DNA from: Escherichia coli | GTDB taxonomy: Bacteria; Pseudomonadota; Gammaproteobacteria; Enterobacterales; Enterobacteriaceae | Length of the DNA stretch: 64,000 nt | Direction: 5' to 3' (one strand) | Assembly: GCF_001677475.2 (NCBI RefSeq) | Contig: NZ_CP015229.1 | Part shown: piece by piece, positions 2,095 through 13,489 of the stretch | Layout: each line of letters starts with the position of its first letter | Numbering within the stretch: position 1 is the first letter of the stretch | The notes under the pieces: model-generated | What the model was told of the DNA's origin: nothing | Databases searched by the model: none | Seen by the model: only the letters and a program-made list of their open reading frames with translations | Translations under genes and position numbers: made by a program

Positions 2095-2138
2095 GATCTA
2101 TTTATTTAGAGATCTGTTCTATTGTGATCTCTTATTAG
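2095..2138. repeat. oriC DNA-unwinding element: three tandem 13-mers (GATCTATTTATTT, GATCTGTTCTATT, GATCTCTTATTAG)
   Basis: Three GATCTnTTnTTTT-type 13-mers read directly at 2095-2107, 2111-2123, 2126-2138. Confidence 0.85.
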
Positions 2139-2151
2139 GATCGCACTGCCC

Positions 2152-2160
2152 TGTGGATAA
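2152..2160. promoter_or_regulatory. DnaA box R1 (TGTGGATAA)
   Basis: Exact 9-mer DnaA consensus (TTATCCACA on the opposite strand) immediately right of the 13-mers. Confidence 0.85.
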
Positions 2161-2331
2161 CAAGGATCCGGCTTTTAAGATCAACAACCTGGAAAGGATC
2201 ATTAACTGTGAATGATCGGTGATCCTGGACCGTATAAGCTGGGATCAGAATGAGGGGTTATACACAACTCAAAAACTGAACAACGGTTTTTCTTTGGATA
2301 ACTACCGGTTGATCCAAGCTTCCTGACAGAG

Positions 2332-3505: not shown

Positions 3506-4498
3506 ATGAAAACCGCTTACATTGCCAAACAACGCCAAATTAGCTTCGTGAAATCTCACTTTTCTCGTCAACTGGAAGAACGTCTGGGGCTGATCGAAGT
3601 CCAGGCGCCGATTCTTAGCCGTGTGGGGGATGGCACGCAGGATAACTTGTCGGGCTGTGAAAAAGCGGTACAGGTAAAAGTGAAAGCTCTGCCTGATGCC
3701 CAGTTCGAAGTGGTTCATTCACTGGCGAAGTGGAAACGTCAGACCTTAGGGCAACACGACTTCAGCGCGGGCGAAGGGCTGTACACGCACATGAAAGCCC
3801 TTCGCCCCGATGAAGACCGTCTTTCTCCGTTGCACTCGGTCTATGTAGACCAGTGGGACTGGGAACGCGTAATGGGCGACGGCGAGCGTCAATTCTCGAC
3901 TCTGAAAAGCACGGTAGAGGCGATCTGGGCGGGAATTAAAGCAACCGAAGCTGCGGTTAGCGAAGAGTTTGGCCTGGCACCGTTCCTGCCGGATCAGATC
4001 CACTTCGTACACAGCCAGGAGTTACTGTCTCGTTATCCGGATCTCGATGCCAAAGGGCGTGAGCGGGCGATTGCGAAAGATCTAGGCGCGGTATTCCTCG
4101 TCGGGATTGGCGGCAAGTTGAGTGATGGTCATCGTCACGACGTGCGCGCACCGGATTATGATGACTGGAGCACCCCGTCAGAGCTGGGCCATGCGGGTCT
4201 GAACGGCGATATTCTGGTATGGAACCCGGTACTGGAAGATGCGTTTGAGCTTTCTTCCATGGGGATCCGCGTGGATGCCGACACGCTGAAGCATCAGCTG
4301 GCGCTGACCGGTGACGAAGATCGCCTGGAGCTGGAGTGGCATCAGGCGCTGCTGCGCGGTGAAATGCCGCAGACCATCGGCGGCGGTATCGGGCAGTCTC
4401 GTTTGACCATGCTGCTGCTGCAACTGCCACATATCGGCCAGGTTCAGTGTGGTGTATGGCCGGCAGCTGTTCGCGAGAGCGTCCCTTCTCTGCTGTAA
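3506..4498 (+). CDS. asnA: Aspartate-ammonia ligase (asparagine synthetase A)
   Basis: 330-aa [41 protein letters not shown]; ATG at 3506 preceded by AGGAG. Confidence 0.95.
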
Positions 4499-4502
4499 TA
4501 AT

Positions 4503-5954
4503 TTATCGCCGCCAGCGTCTGAGCAGGCGGCTTCGCATCCCGGTATCAAAGCGCCAGATATGATCGAAAATGCGCATGATGCCGGGTTTGCCATGTGCCG
4601 ACATCGCCACGGCATGAAAGCGATGCTGATGTACCCGCTGCAACTCTTTCACTTTGCTCGTCACGTCGTCAGGCAACCGCTGGGCGATAAAATCAGAAAT
4701 CACCACCGCATCGGCATCAAACCATTCCCGGCTTTGCAAGCGTTCCATAATGGCGCGAAAACAACTGGCCAGATCGGTGCCGCCACGAAACTGCTGGCTT
4801 AAAAAACGGATTGCTTGTTCGATGCCTTGTGGGCCTGAAAGCTCATAACGGACGATCTCGGTGGAAAATAACATAATATAGCAGCGCCGGTTTTCAGCGA
4901 GAGCAATGCGCATCAAGGCCAGGCAGAACGCTTTCGCACACTGTTCATTAAAGCCGCCCATTGAGCCGGAAGTATCCACACAGACAATAAACGGTCCGCG
5001 CGGCTGTTCGTCGTAATCTTTATGCACCACCGGGCGTTCGATCACTTTTTCTCGCCACGACTCACCGTGCAGGCGATAGGTGAGCAACTGTTTTTCCACC
5101 AGCCGACGGTAAAACTCATACTCCAGTTCTGTTATCCCTAGTGTCGCCAGTTCTGGCGGCAGGAGACGTAAAATATCATCGCTTTGTTGCAGACCATCAA
5201 CCTGCTCAGGAACCGTCGCCGGTTCGCGCACCAGGGTGCGGAAGGTTTCCATCTGCGCATCGTTGCGCGGTATTGATTTGGCTTCCCGGGAACGCCCCAG
5301 CTGTTCTGCCAGGCGTTTCAGTTCCGGCTGTTCGTTAAGAAATTCACCGTATTTCACAATCAACTGATAGTCGCCGCGTTTAAGCTGACCGGCGCTCATA
5401 TCCCACAGACGACCAGCTGCGGTATTGTTATCTGCGAGAATGGGTTCAAGTTGCCCGCTCAGCGTCATGCGTTCCTGAACTTCACTCAACAGTTGTTCGC
5501 GTTCTTCTTCTAATAGCTGCTGATTTAGCGTCGTTGCTTGCACGATCAGACTTAAACGCCAGCGCTGGAGAAAAAGCGTGTGTAACGCTGAAGTGATCGT
5601 ACTGTTAGCATCAACCAACTGTCGGGCTTGTTCTGCCCATGGAGAATTCAGACGATGCAGTAAGTCCAGGATCTGTGGTAGCTGCACAATAAACTGCGGC
5701 GTGGAGAGGAGCTGGCTTTGCTGATAGCACATCACCTCTTCGGTGAGTTCCGGCGGGACTCGGGCATCTTTCAGCCGACTGCGCAGTGCCTCACGCCAGC
5801 GGGGAACATCATCAGTGATTGCCGCCTTCAGTCGTGGGAATTTTTCAAAGAAGACTGCCAGCTGCGGTGAGGCCAGCAGCGCGATGATCATCTCTTCGAT
5901 CAATCCCTCTTCGCTGACGGCCAGCATCACATTAAGCGTATCCAGCGTTAGCAT
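4503..5954 (-). CDS. viaA: VWA-domain protein ViaA (YieM), partner of RavA
   Basis: 483-aa ORF; VWA-like motif region ([13 protein letters not shown]); start overlaps ravA stop by 7 nt. Confidence 0.92.
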
Positions 5955-7444
5955 TGTTGTGCCTGGCGAATCTGTGCACCGACATCCTGTAGGCTGGCTT
6001 CAATGCGACCTAACCAGTCGCCAGGGATAAACAGACATTTTTGCTGTTCGCTGAATAAAGCGTGTTGCTTGCGCCAGTCGCTTTCAAGCTCTTCCAGTTG
6101 TTGTTTTATTTCACCTGGCAGACCTTCAGCCGATGAACCGGGAAGTGCCAGCGTACTGCCTTGTAAACTTACATCGCGTACAACAAGATGTTGGGCGCTA
6201 TCAACTTCCAGATTCAGTTTCTGGGCAAAGCCGATACCGTTTAGTTTGCCGCGAATTTCACCACCTTTACTCAGCCACTGTTCCAGCGCGCTACGCTCAA
6301 AGGAGATATGAACCACTTCCATATCATGCAGTTTTAACGGTTTTTGCAGCAGCAGAGTCAGAGTGGAAGCAGTAACGTTAACAGGGAGTTGATACTGCTG
6401 ACGACGGCTGAAAATGCCGCCCAGACGAATTACCGTTAAGGCTGTTTTATCGCTTTGTTGCTGCTGTAGTTGCAGGTGACGTTGCACAATCGCGCCCAGG
6501 CGGGTCAACATCCCTTGCTGTTGCCAGGCATGACCGGTCATCAATACATCAATTTGTTGTTGTATCAAATTCAGGCTTTGCGCGTCATACCACAGGCAAT
6601 CTTTCAGCAAAATGAGATCTACCGGGGCAACAGCACTGCGACCGCTAAAAAAGGCGCTGGCCTGCAATAATCGGATCGCTTTTTTCCAGCGACGATCCGA
6701 GACATAAGGCGCATCCGGTAATTTATCCAGTTGCTGGCGCAGCATAAAAATCAGCTCAAATACATGATCGGGCAGCGTAATTTCACCAATCTCTTTCTGC
6801 CAGCGTTCATATTCTTCATCTGTGACCTGCAAGGCATCAGGAACCGGATTGTCGTTTTCATCCTGTTGACTGGTCAGCATGGAGCGGAAATTCGCTTTAT
6901 CCTGCACTTTATCTAACCACAGACGAATCAGCATGCGGTCATATAACGCTTCCAGACTGCTGTCTGCTTCCGGCAGCTCGTTGGAGGCCGCCACCAGTAG
7001 ACGCATCGGGATTTTTTCTACGTGTGCACCGTTGCGGAACTGGCGCTCGTTAATGGCGGTGAGCAAGGTATTAAGAATTGCCGGGCCCGCTTTCCAGATC
7101 TCATCCAGAAAGACGATTTCTGCTTCCGGCAGGTAACCGTTGGTTAAACGTTCATAGCGCCCTTCATCTTTTAGCGCCTGAATAGAAAGGGGACCAAAAA
7201 CTTCTTCCGGCGTGGAGAAGCGGGTCATCAGATATTCAAACGCGCGGGCATTCTGAAAGGCGAATTTTAAGCGCCGGGCGATCAAACTTTTGGCAATACC
7301 TGGCGGGCCAAGGAGGAACACACTTTCACCACTTAATGCCGCTAATAAACACAAGCGGATGGCGTGGCTACGTTCATAAAGCCCCTTTTCCAACGAACTG
7401 CTCAGGCGGGAAATTCTTTCCGCTAATAAATGAGGGTGAGCCAT
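5948..7444 (-). CDS. ravA: MoxR-family AAA+ ATPase RavA (YieN)
   Basis: ORF-track 506 aa; canonical 498-aa start [14 protein letters not shown] at ATG 7442-7444; Walker A GPPGIAKS. Confidence 0.92.
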
Positions 7445-7666
7445 AATGAAGTGGCGTCCTTTCGTCAAAAGTTCTGCGTAAATTGCGAGTATAGACGTTT
7501 CTTGCTGGTGGCTAAAATAGTCTCAAAGGGGGGGCATTTTTCTTTGAGCCAGGTTAATGTGGCCGCATTTAGGAGTACGATTTTGCCGTTAATCGTGCAT
7601 ACTGTGCGCTTTTTTGTGGGCCAAGGGACTAAGCACACATTTCATATTTCAACGAAAGACTAGTCT

Positions 7667-9535
7667 ATGAGCACTGATAATAAGCAATCATTGCCCGCGA
7701 TTACCCTCGCGGCGATTGGAGTTGTCTACGGCGATATTGGTACCAGCCCGTTATATACACTTCGTGAATGTTTGTCCGGCCAGTTTGGTTTTGGCGTTGA
7801 ACGCGATGCCGTGTTTGGCTTTTTATCGCTGATCTTCTGGCTGCTAATCTTTGTGGTTTCCATTAAATATCTCACCTTCGTGATGCGGGCAGATAACGCC
7901 GGTGAAGGGGGGATCCTGACGTTGATGTCGCTTGCCGGGCGTAATACGTCGGCGCGAACCACATCAATGCTGGTGATTATGGGGTTAATCGGCGGCAGCT
8001 TTTTCTATGGTGAAGTCGTCATAACACCCGCTATTTCGGTGATGTCAGCCATTGAAGGTCTGGAAATCGTCGCCCCGCAGCTGGATACCTGGATAGTTCC
8101 CCTCTCAATTATCGTTCTCACTTTATTATTTATGATTCAAAAGCATGGCACGGCTATGGTCGGTAAGCTGTTTGCGCCGATCATGCTGACCTGGTTTTTG
8201 ATTCTGGCAGGACTGGGATTACGTAGCATTATTGCTAACCCGGAAGTGCTGCATGCGTTGAATCCGATGTGGGCGGTGCATTTCTTCCTTGAATACAAAA
8301 CGGTTTCTTTTATTGCATTAGGGGCAGTGGTGCTGTCGATTACGGGGGTCGAGGCGCTGTATGCTGATATGGGGCACTTTGGTAAGTTCCCTATTCGCCT
8401 GGCGTGGTTCACCGTCGTATTACCTTCCTTGACCCTTAATTACTTCGGTCAGGGAGCGTTGTTGTTAAAGAACCCGGAAGCGATTAAGAACCCGTTCTTC
8501 CTGTTGGCACCGGACTGGGCGCTGATCCCGCTGCTGATCATCGCCGCACTGGCAACGGTAATTGCCTCGCAGGCGGTTATCTCTGGCGTCTTCTCATTGA
8601 CGCGTCAGGCGGTACGTCTGGGATATTTGTCGCCGATGCGCATTATTCACACCTCCGAAATGGAGTCAGGGCAAATCTATATTCCGTTTGTGAACTGGAT
8701 GCTCTATGTCGCGGTCGTGATTGTGATTGTCAGCTTTGAGCACTCCAGCAACCTGGCGGCGGCGTACGGGATTGCGGTGACCGGAACCATGGTGCTGACG
8801 TCTATTCTCTCGACTACCGTGGCACGTCAGAACTGGCACTGGAATAAGTATTTTGTTGCGCTGATCCTGATTGCTTTCCTTTGTGTCGATATTCCATTGT
8901 TCACCGCTAACCTCGATAAACTGCTCTCCGGCGGCTGGTTGCCATTGAGCCTCGGTACGGTGATGTTTATCGTGATGACCACCTGGAAGAGCGAGCGTTT
9001 CCGCTTGCTGCGGCGGATGCATGAACATGGTAACTCTCTGGAAGCGATGATTGCTTCGCTGGAGAAATCACCGCCCGTTCGCGTGCCCGGGACCGCAGTG
9101 TATATGTCGCGTGCAATCAACGTCATTCCCTTTGCGCTGATGCATAACCTTAAACATAACAAGGTATTGCATGAGCGGGTGATTCTGTTAACTCTGCGCA
9201 CCGAAGACGCGCCATATGTCCATAACGTCCGTCGGGTACAGATTGAACAACTGTCGCCCACTTTCTGGCGCGTGGTGGCAAGTTATGGTTGGCGAGAAAC
9301 GCCAAACGTGGAAGAAGTATTCCACCGCTGCGGTCTGGAAGGATTAAGTTGCCGGATGATGGAAACCTCCTTCTTTATGTCGCATGAGTCGTTGATCCTC
9401 GGCAAACGCCCGTGGTATTTGCGTCTGCGCGGTAAGCTGTACTTGCTGTTGCAACGTAATGCGCTGCGTGCGCCGGATCAATTTGAAATCCCGCCAAACA
9501 GGGTTATCGAACTGGGTACTCAGGTCGAAATCTAA
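7667..9535 (+). CDS. kup: Low-affinity K+ uptake transporter Kup (TrkD)
   Basis: 622-aa [34 protein letters not shown], multi-pass membrane protein. Confidence 0.95.
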
Positions 9536-12628: not shown

Positions 12629-13489
12629 ATGAACATGAAAAAACTGGCTACCCTGGTTTCCGCTGTTGCGCTAAGCGCCACCGTCAGTGCGAATGCGATG
12701 GCAAAAGACACCATCGCGCTGGTGGTCTCCACGCTTAACAACCCGTTCTTTGTATCGCTGAAAGATGGCGCGCAGAAAGAGGCGGATGAACTTGGCTATA
12801 ACCTGGTGGTGCTGGACTCCCAGAACAACCCGGCGAAAGAGCTGGCGAACGTGCAGGACTTAACCGTTCGCGGCACCAAAATTCTGCTGATTAACCCGAC
12901 CGACTCCGACGCAGTGGGTAATGCTGTGAAGATGGCTAATCAGGCGAACATCCCGGTTATCACTCTTGACCGCCAGGCAACGAAAGGTGAAGTGGTGAGC
13001 CACATTGCATCTGATAACGTACTGGGCGGCAAAATCGCCGGTGATTACATCGCGAAGAAAGCGGGCGAAGGTGCCAAAGTTATCGAGCTGCAAGGCATTG
13101 CTGGTACATCCGCAGCCCGTGAACGTGGCGAAGGCTTCCAGCAGGCCGTTGCTGCTCACAAGTTTAATGTTCTTGCCAGCCAGCCAGCAGATTTTGATCG
13201 CACCAAAGGTTTGAACGTAATGCAGAACCTGTTGACCGCTCATCCGGATGTTCAGGCTGTATTTGCACAGAATGATGAAATGGCGCTGGGCGCGCTGCGC
13301 GCACTGCAAACTGCCGGTAAATCGGATGTGATGGTCGTCGGATTTGACGGTACACCGGATGGCGAAAAAGCGGTTAATGATGGCAAACTAGCAGCGACTA
13401 TCGCTCAGCTACCCGATCAGATTGGCGCGAAAGGCGAGAAAGTTCAGGCTAAGTATCCGGTTGATCTAAAACTGGTTGTTAAGCAGTAG
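12629..13489 (+). CDS. rbsB: Periplasmic ribose-binding protein RbsB (appears ~10 codons shorter than the K-12 protein; see findings)
   Basis: [25 protein letters not shown] signal peptide then [16 protein letters not shown]; ATG at 12629 with AGGA upstream; C-terminus reads [23 protein letters not shown]. Confidence 0.9.

What the first reader, a model, noticed from the sequence alone, without database searches (positions are those of the whole stretch)
4503..7444. ravA-viaA: MoxR AAA+ ATPase plus VWA partner in an overlapping operon of still-debated function
The two genes are translationally coupled, with the viaA start overlapping the ravA stop by 7 nt. The MoxR/VWA pair has been linked to the lysine decarboxylase cage, fumarate reductase maturation and aminoglycoside sensitivity, but its primary role remains unsettled. 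It is a known system rather than a new one, yet it is the most enigmatic two-gene module in the window.
Basis: established knowledge. Interest (0 to 1): 0.3.

Follow-up and report, generated by a model that had tools for sequence, protein, structure and literature searches.

The report
Ordinary E. coli ravA-viaA operon
This is the well-studied E. coli ravA-viaA operon (an ATP-driven motor protein and its adaptor), almost identical to the laboratory strain K-12, so this copy adds nothing new.

Summary
On the minus strand, viaA (4503-5954, 483 aa) follows ravA (5948-7444, 498 aa), and the two overlap by 7 nt (ATGCTAA, 5948-5954).

- **Identity:** both proteins match NCBI's exact-function family models over their full length (RavA 992.9 bits, ViaA 878.2 bits). 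Both also match solved E. coli structures: RavA 3NBX/6Q7L/6SZA, and the ViaA N-terminal domain 7UGC.
- **Functional residues, all present:**
  - RavA: Walker A GPPGIAKS with K52, D114/E115, R170 and R251.
  - ViaA: MIDAS D327-x-S-x-S with T393 and D421, and the lipid-binding R476 and R479.
- **Comparison with K-12 MG1655:** RavA differs by one residue (S102N) and ViaA by one (M241L). The 222-nt ravA-kup intergenic region differs at one base (7535). Gene order is the same: asnA, viaA, ravA, kup, rbs.
- **Distribution:** the locus is present in 5422 of 5426 complete E. coli genomes.
- **Source:** an ordinary E. coli lineage, with 1 mismatch in 17.4 kb to a draft assembly.

Published candidates are the LdcI cage, fumarate reductase and NADH dehydrogenase I, inner-membrane lipids, and aminoglycoside uptake.

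Verdict: already known, low interest.

The parts
5948..7444 (-). ravA coding sequence (498 aa plus stop): MoxR-family AAA+ ATPase RavA
   Evidence: ORF. NCBIfam equivalog NF010054, 992.9 bits over 1-498. Pfam bpMoxR, AAA_5, AAA_lid_8, LARA_dom and ATPase_RavA_C. PDB 6q7l, 3nbx and 6sza matched over 1-498. One aa difference from K-12.
4503..5954 (-). viaA coding sequence (483 aa plus stop): VWA-domain partner and stimulator of RavA
   Evidence: ORF. NCBIfam equivalog NF008230, 878.2 bits. Pfam VWA_CoxE and VWA_2. PDB 7ugc matches residues 1-191. One aa difference from K-12.
5948..5954 (-). 7-nt overlap ATGCTAA: viaA start codon (5954-5952) inside the end of ravA (stop 5950-5948)
   Evidence: Read directly from the sequence. 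K-12, MEI003 and L003-L006 have the same arrangement.
7286..7309 (-). RavA Walker A, GPPGIAKS (residues 46-53, K52)
   Evidence: Motif search. K52Q abolishes function in published work.
7100..7117 (-). RavA Walker B, IVFLDE (residues 110-115, D114/E115)
   Evidence: D114 coordinates nucleotide according to PMC6987120.
6137..6442 (-). RavA LARA domain (residues 335-436), the surface that binds LdcI and phosphatidylglycerol
   Evidence: Pfam PF20265, 135.5 bits. PDB 4upf and 5fl2. Role from PMC9489729 and PMC10585395.
7139..7141 (-). RavA codon 102, AAC (Asn); K-12 has Ser. The only RavA difference from K-12
   Evidence: This exact RavA protein is on record in 60 E. coli contigs.
5382..5954 (-). 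ViaA N-terminal helical domain (residues 1-191, 'VAN fold'), the part that binds RavA
   Evidence: PDB 7ugc, E 5.8e-117. Role from PMC10585395 and PMC9489729.
4584..4997 (-). ViaA C-terminal VWA domain (residues 320-457). MIDAS D327-T-S329-G-S331 lies at 4962-4976, with T393 and D421
   Evidence: Pfam PF05762 and PF13519. Motif positions.
4506..4538 (-). ViaA C-terminal arginine-rich helix ([11 protein letters not shown]) with R476 and R479, the published lipid-binding site
   Evidence: Sequence. R476E/R479E abolishes lipid binding and gentamicin sensitisation (PMC9489729).
5232..5234 (-). ViaA codon 241, CTG (Leu); K-12 has Met. The only ViaA difference from K-12
   Evidence: This exact ViaA protein is on record in at least 1000 contigs and is the UniRef representative VIAA_ECOLU.
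7445..7666 (.). ravA-kup divergent intergenic region holding the native ravA promoter. 221 of 222 bases match K-12; the single difference is at 7535 (C here, T in K-12)
   Evidence: The published 'ravAp' fragment is the 206 bp upstream of ravA (PMC3893208). The region is at least 99% identical in 4745 complete E. coli genomes and 100% identical in 2.
7488..7494 (-). CTATACT: candidate sigma-S-type -10 element (C at -13 plus TATACT) 44 nt upstream of the ravA ATG. My inference only
   Evidence: Read from the sequence. Not called by the sigma-70 scan, whose -35 criterion is not met. Fits the reported sigma-S dependence, but no mapped start site was available to me.
7457..7461 (-). AAGGA Shine-Dalgarno-like sequence 12 nt upstream of the ravA ATG
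   Evidence: Read from the sequence.

Best explanation
The region is the chromosomal ravA-viaA operon of an ordinary Escherichia coli strain. It sits in the usual place, between asnA and kup, about 2 kb from oriC.

Shown here: intact genes, all catalytic and binding motifs, near-identity to K-12, and the 7-nt overlap.

Taken from published experiments on the K-12 proteins:
- RavA is a hexameric MoxR-family (clade 7) AAA+ ATPase.
- ViaA binds RavA through its N-terminal helical domain and stimulates the ATPase.
- ViaA uses its VWA domain to contact FrdA, and also subunits of NADH dehydrogenase I.
- ViaA uses its C-terminal arginine helix to bind anionic lipids of the inner membrane.
- The operon is expressed at low level from the promoter upstream of ravA. 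Expression depends on sigma-S in aerobic stationary phase and on Fnr under anaerobiosis.
- RavA separately caps the lysine decarboxylase LdcI through its LARA domain and shields it from ppGpp.

Inferred: the pair acts as an ATP-driven, chaperone-like remodeller of respiratory complexes at the inner membrane in low-energy states. A side effect is more proton-motive-force-dependent aminoglycoside uptake. The overlap lets ribosomes that finish ravA restart on viaA, whose Shine-Dalgarno sequence is weak. That fits the reported roughly 4:1 ratio of RavA to ViaA.
For: - **Family and structure matches:** NCBIfam equivalogs over the full length, the Pfam domain set, and PDB matches to E. coli RavA and the ViaA N-terminal domain.
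- **Functional residues present:** RavA K52, D114/E115, R170 and R251; ViaA MIDAS D327/S329/S331/T393/D421 and R476/R479.
- **Closeness to K-12:** RavA S102N only, ViaA M241L only, and 1 of 222 intergenic bases different.
- **Purifying selection:** 15 nucleotide changes give 1 aa change in ravA, and 31 give 1 in viaA.
- **Synteny:** the window is collinear with K-12 from 3923650.
- **Distribution:** the locus is in 5422 of 5426 complete E. coli genomes, always chromosomal.
- **Source:** the window is nearly identical to E. coli draft assemblies (1 mismatch in 17,444 bases).
- **Published function:** operon and sigma-S control, about 350 RavA and 90 ViaA molecules per cell, and the K52Q effect (PMC3893208); Fnr control, LdcI cage and FrdA binding (PMC10585395); lipid binding (PMC9489729); pmf-dependent gentamicin uptake (PMC9973319).
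Against: Nothing argues against the identity.

The mechanism is disputed in the literature. El Khoury et al. found no effect of RavA-ViaA on Frd or Nuo activity. The Houry group reports inhibition of Frd and says it did not observe lipid binding by the LARA domain.

Translational coupling has not been tested, either here or in the papers I read. ViaA levels rise in a ravA::cat strain, so viaA translation does not strictly need intact ravA.

The cadA (LdcI) and frd loci are outside the window, so I could not check that the partners are present in this strain.
Confidence: 0.97

Rival explanations
1. Same genes, different primary role. RavA-ViaA acts mainly on the inner membrane itself, through lipid homeostasis or sensing of proton motive force, rather than on respiratory enzymes. 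ViaA binds phosphatidic acid and cardiolipin, RavA binds phosphatidylglycerol, and the pair changes membrane properties so that aminoglycosides enter in low-energy states.
For: [quoted passage not shown] Lipid-binding mutants (ViaA R476E/R479E, ViaA 1-472, RavA lacking LARA) lose gentamicin sensitisation. PMC9973319 reports no effect on Frd or Nuo activity, and uptake that depends on pmf. The residues involved are intact in the window.
Against: The Houry group did not observe lipid binding by LARA. It reports direct ViaA-FrdA binding and a persistence phenotype that depends on Frd. The lipid effects were seen with overexpression, and native levels are very low.
Confidence: 0.3
2. Same genes, but the main physiological role is in acid and nutrient stress. 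RavA hexamers cage LdcI decamers through the LARA domain and protect LdcI from inhibition by ppGpp. ViaA and the respiratory links are secondary.
For: The LARA domain is intact (Pfam PF20265). Structures of the LdcI-RavA cage exist (6q7l/6q7m; PMC6987120 and PMC4145799). The ppGpp-shielding result is cited.
Against: The cage needs neither ViaA nor the VWA domain, yet the two genes are kept together under purifying selection. ravA-viaA also affects aminoglycoside tolerance in Vibrio cholerae (PMC10848872). LdcI is not within the window, so the pairing cannot be checked for this strain.
Confidence: 0.12
3. This copy behaves differently from K-12 because of its lineage-specific changes: RavA S102N, ViaA M241L, and the intergenic base at 7535.
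For: The intergenic allele is rare: only 2 complete genomes are 100% identical to the window over those 222 nt. RavA residue 102 lies 8 residues before the Walker B strand.
Against: All three changes are conservative or lie outside known functional residues. Both exact proteins recur in many E. coli contigs: 60 for RavA and at least 1000 for ViaA. Base 7535 lies about 40 nt upstream of the candidate -10 element and in no recognised site. The Fnr-box scan is at chance level.
Confidence: 0.03

Closest known systems
E. coli K-12 MG1655 ravA (b3746) and viaA (b3745)
   Same: Gene lengths (498 and 483 aa), the 7-nt overlap, the neighbours (asnA convergent with a 4-nt gap, kup divergent with a 222-nt gap), and all catalytic and binding residues. 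Nucleotide identity is 99.0% for ravA and 97.9% for viaA.
   Different: RavA S102N, ViaA M241L and one intergenic base (7535). Every other nucleotide difference in the two genes is synonymous.
Other MoxR AAA+/VWA pairs, such as NorQ/NorD (nitric oxide reductase maturation) and CbbQ/CbbO (Rubisco activase)
   Same: A clade 7 AAA+ ATPase encoded next to a VWA/MIDAS adaptor that delivers it to a target enzyme complex (general principle described in PMC9976466 and PMC5437159, listed; my own knowledge for the details).
   Different: RavA carries the LARA domain and a C-terminal RavA-specific domain. ViaA has its own N-terminal VAN fold. The target of RavA-ViaA is not a single defined enzyme.
Shigella flexneri viaA
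   Same: The same locus, 99% identical over residues 235-483.
   Different: The S. flexneri product on record is only the C-terminal 249 aa and is seen on 556 contigs. That suggests a disrupted gene there. The window's viaA is full length.

Membership tests
RavA (MoxR-family AAA+ ATPase, RavA subfamily) | Full-length match to the curated RavA equivalog model, above its cut-off | tested here: met
   NF010054, 992.9 bits against a cut-off of 681, covering 1-498 of 498.
RavA (MoxR-family AAA+ ATPase, RavA subfamily) | AAA+ catalytic residues: Walker A lysine, Walker B D/E, arginine finger, trans-acting sensor 2 | tested here: met
   K52 in GPPGIAKS, D114/E115, R170 and R251 are all present. Residue roles are from PMC6987120.
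RavA (MoxR-family AAA+ ATPase, RavA subfamily) | LARA domain and RavA C-terminal domain after the AAA+ lid | tested here: met
   PF20265 at 135.5 bits, PF12592 at 82.7 bits and PF17868 at 77.9 bits. PDB 4upf and 5fl2 LARA fragments matched.
   PF07726 scores 21.6 bits, below its 27-bit cut-off. This is a property of the RavA subfamily, which is covered by PF20030 bpMoxR (191.1 bits) and AAA_5. It is not evidence against membership.
RavA (MoxR-family AAA+ ATPase, RavA subfamily) | Hexamer formation, ATPase activity and LdcI cage formation | not testable with these tools
   Shown experimentally for the K-12 protein, which differs by one residue.
ViaA (VWA protein interacting with AAA+ ATPase) | Full-length match to the curated ViaA equivalog model | tested here: met
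   NF008230, 878.2 bits against a cut-off of 500.
ViaA (VWA protein interacting with AAA+ ATPase) | C-terminal VWA domain with a complete MIDAS motif (DxSxS...T...D) | tested here: met
   PF05762 and PF13519 are above their cut-offs. D327-T-S329-G-S331, T393 and D421 are present.
ViaA (VWA protein interacting with AAA+ ATPase) | N-terminal VAN-fold domain that binds RavA | tested here: met
   Residues 1-191 match PDB 7ugc at E 5.8e-117.
ViaA (VWA protein interacting with AAA+ ATPase) | C-terminal basic helix with R476 and R479 (lipid binding) | tested here: met
   The sequence [11 protein letters not shown] is present, with R476 and R479. Their role is from PMC9489729.
MoxR-VWA two-gene module | The AAA+ gene and the VWA gene are adjacent on the same strand in one operon | tested here: met
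   ravA 5948-7444 and viaA 4503-5954 are both on the minus strand and overlap by 7 nt. Operon status is from the literature.
MoxR-VWA two-gene module | Sigma-S and Fnr control of the promoter | tested here: inconclusive
   The promoter region matches K-12 at 221 of 222 bases, so K-12 regulation should carry over. No Fnr box stands out: the consensus scan gives 262 hits against 241.6 expected, and the best site in the intergenic region has 3 mismatches. The sigma-70 scan finds nothing on the minus strand there. CTATACT at 7488-7494 is my reading only.

The most novel reading that the evidence does not exclude
The rare lineage-specific alleles change the expression or activity of RavA-ViaA, and with it the aminoglycoside susceptibility or persistence of this E. 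coli lineage. The alleles are the intergenic C at 7535, found in only 2 complete genomes that are 100% identical to the window over the 222 nt, and RavA S102N just upstream of the Walker B strand.
Probability: 0.03. Interest if true: 0.2.

Novelty: already known. Interest (0 to 1): 0.08.

Why it matters
This copy matters very little. RavA-ViaA is a real open question in E. coli physiology. It bears on what a MoxR/VWA pair remodels and why it makes cells sensitive to aminoglycosides under anaerobiosis. That question is being worked on with the K-12 proteins, and this window encodes proteins that differ from them by one conservative residue each. The sequence gives no new handle on it. The useful result is that the finding can be closed as correctly identified and ordinary.

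Tried and rejected
1. **Fnr-box scan.** I searched the window for TTGATNNNNATCAA with up to 3 mismatches. It gave 262 matches against 241.6 +/- 15.7 expected, which is chance level. The only site in the ravA-kup region (7544-7557) has 3 mismatches. The scan does not locate the Fnr site.
2. **Promoter and terminator scan of 4200-7900.** No promoter-like site appears on the minus strand upstream of ravA. There are 9 terminator-like sites against 4.6 +/- 2.0 expected, and none is placed where it would end the operon. Only 4 nt (4499-4502) separate the convergent asnA and viaA stop codons, as in K-12.
3. **Non-E. coli source.** The best complete RefSeq E. coli genome is only 99.1% identical over 3.4 kb, so I considered Shigella or a cryptic clade. 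I rejected this. E. coli draft assemblies carrying the exact RavA protein match the window at 99.79-99.99% over 17.4 kb. The lineage is simply absent from the complete-genome set.
4. **Longer RavA from the TTG at 7468.** I rejected this start. K-12 annotation and all PDB constructs begin at the ATG at 7444.
5. **Rfam scan of the whole window.** No RNA family matched inside 4503-7666.
6. **Searches not run.** Identity was already settled, and experimental structures exist.

Full report

Yes. The six-frame ORF list and the minus-strand sequence show two consecutive genes on the minus strand.
- One is a 483-aa ORF at 4503..5954.
- The other is an ORF that ends at 5948. Its mechanical start is a TTG at 7468. 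Its biological start is the ATG at 7444, which gives 498 aa. That is the start used in K-12 annotation and in all RavA structures.

The upstream gene ends ...CAA CAA TGC TAA. The downstream gene starts at the ATG formed by the A of the last CAA codon and the TG of the TGC codon. The shared stretch is therefore ATGCTAA, 5948-5954, which is 7 nt.

**2. What is it?**

- **RavA family matches.** RavA matches NCBIfam's equivalog model 'ATPase RavA' end to end (992.9 bits, cut-off 681). Pfam finds bpMoxR, AAA_5, AAA_lid_8, the LARA domain and the RavA C-terminal domain.
- **ViaA family matches.** ViaA matches 'ATPase RavA stimulator ViaA' (878.2 bits, cut-off 500). Pfam finds VWA_CoxE and VWA_2 in it.
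That is a detail of the RavA subfamily and does not contradict the assignment.
- **Solved structures.** The proteins match E. coli RavA (3NBX, 6Q7L/M, 6SZA/B; LARA fragments 4UPF, 5FL2) and the NMR structure of the ViaA N-terminal domain (7UGC, residues 1-191).
- **RavA functional residues.** Walker A GPPGIAKS with K52, Walker B D114/E115, arginine finger R170 and sensor 2 R251 are all present. Their roles are described.
- **ViaA functional residues.** MIDAS D327-x-S329-x-S331, T393 and D421 are present, as are the lipid-binding R476 and R479. The role of the two arginines is described.

**3. How close is it to K-12?**

I fetched MG1655 3,923,000-3,984,000. The window is collinear with it from 3,923,650 onward. 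The gene order is mnmG, oriC, mioC, asnC, asnA, viaA, ravA, kup, rbsDACBKR and so on.

| Feature | Nucleotide differences | Amino-acid differences |
|---|---|---|
| ravA | 15 | 1 (S102N) |
| viaA | 31 | 1 (M241L) |
| ravA-kup intergenic region (222 nt) | 1 (7535, C here, T in K-12) | not applicable |

The excess of synonymous changes shows that both genes are under purifying selection and are functional.

The locus is core to the species. It matched in 5422 of 5426 complete E. coli genomes, always on the chromosome. The intergenic region is at least 99% identical in 4745 of them and 100% identical in 2.

**4. Where does the window come from?**

The best complete RefSeq genome is only 99.1% identical over 3.4 kb, which made me consider a non-E. 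coli source. That turned out not to be the case. The exact RavA protein occurs in 60 E. coli contigs and the exact ViaA in at least 1000. Draft assemblies that carry this RavA match the first 17.4 kb of the window with 1 to 36 mismatches. It is an ordinary E. coli lineage that is missing from the complete-genome set.

**5. How does it work?**

Everything mechanistic comes from published work on the K-12 proteins, which differ from these by one residue each.
- The two genes form an operon. Aerobically it depends on sigma-S. It yields about 350 RavA and 90 ViaA molecules per cell. ViaA stimulates the RavA ATPase, and the K52Q mutant is inactive in vivo (PMC3893208).
- Under anaerobiosis the operon is under Fnr control.
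- RavA forms a cage with LdcI through its LARA domain, which blocks inhibition of LdcI by ppGpp.
- ViaA binds FrdA through its VWA domain. RavA-ViaA lowers Frd-dependent persistence (PMC10585395).
- Both proteins bind anionic lipids at the inner membrane. Lipid-binding mutants lose gentamicin sensitisation (PMC9489729).
- RavA-ViaA raises pmf-dependent gentamicin uptake under fumarate respiration, with no measurable effect on Frd or Nuo activity (PMC9973319).

My preferred reading is ATP-driven remodelling of respiratory complexes at the inner membrane in low-energy states, guided by ViaA. In that reading aminoglycoside uptake is a side effect and the LdcI cage is a separate, LARA-mediated activity. 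This is an inference from those papers, not something the window can test.

**6. Regulation and coupling in the sequence**

- An AAGGA lies 12 nt upstream of the ravA ATG (7457-7461).
- Only a weak AGG lies 7 nt upstream of the viaA ATG. That fits restart of translation at the overlap and the lower abundance of ViaA, but this is inference.
- On the minus strand, CTATACT at 7488-7494 looks like a sigma-S-type -10 element (my reading). The sigma-70 scan does not call it.
- An Fnr-consensus scan is at chance level and does not locate a site.
- The one intergenic difference from K-12 (7535) lies about 40 nt upstream of that candidate -10 element, in no recognised motif.

**7. Comparison with what is known, and verdict**

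This is the known ravA-viaA operon itself, not a relative of it. All testable defining features are met. The only unmet item, Pfam AAA_3, is not a defining feature of the RavA subfamily. Novelty: already known. Interest: low.

**8. Seen in passing**

These observations are listed separately in the report:
- an in-frame 30-nt deletion in rbsB, between two 8-nt direct repeats, which also falls inside K-12's rbsZ small RNA;
- an intact ilvG, where K-12 has a frameshift;
- a more divergent ilvY-ilvC patch;
- oriC, placed by collinearity at 2095-2326;
- a truncated ViaA product in Shigella flexneri records;
- IS4 insertions in this area in some E. coli genomes.

Noticed in passing
window 12629-13489 (+), junction near 13429-13436: rbsB encodes 286 aa here, not the 296 aa of K-12. 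A 30-nt in-frame deletion between two GAAAGGCG direct repeats removes VETADKVLKG (K-12 RbsB 270-279). The deleted stretch also lies inside K-12's annotated small RNA rbsZ (3937045-3937278). Draft assembly L006 shares the deletion; L003-L005 do not.
   Followed up: partly
window 2095-2326: By collinearity with K-12 (oriC 3925744-3925975), the chromosomal replication origin lies here, between mnmG (95-1984, -) and mioC. That is about 2.2 kb from viaA.
   Followed up: no
window 26879-28525 (+): ilvG is an intact 548-aa ORF, whereas K-12 MG1655 carries the well-known frameshifted ilvG pseudogene. The Rfam hit 'Rev39_5p_UTR' at 26570-26859 sits on the ilv leader just upstream.
   Followed up: no
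window 33193-35708: The ilvY-ilvC segment is only 95.35% identical to K-12, against about 98.2% in the flanking blocks. The K-12 intergenic stretches on either side do not align. This looks like a recombination patch.
   Followed up: no
protein P0004 (Shigella flexneri records), compared with window 4506-5954: The Shigella flexneri 'ViaA' product on record is only 249 aa, equal to residues 235-483, and is seen on 556 contigs. That suggests viaA is disrupted in that lineage. The window's viaA is full length.
   Followed up: partly
hits H4 and H5 (E. coli CE-O153H30 and 21AR0303), region equivalent to window 4400-7800: Some complete E. coli genomes carry an IS4-family insertion within this asnA-kup stretch. 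About 76 genomes cover less than 80% of the ravA-kup intergenic query. The window has no such insertion.
   Followed up: no
window 4499-4502: The convergent asnA and viaA stop codons are only 4 nt apart (TAATAATTTA on the plus strand), as in K-12. This leaves no intergenic room for a terminator for either gene.
   Followed up: no
window 7594-7618 (+): A terminator-like hairpin followed by a T-run (CGTGCATACTGTGCG CTTTTTTGTG) lies on the kup-sense strand, about 60 nt upstream of the kup start. Terminator-like hits in the region number 9 against 4.6 +/- 2.0 expected, so it may be chance.
   Followed up: no
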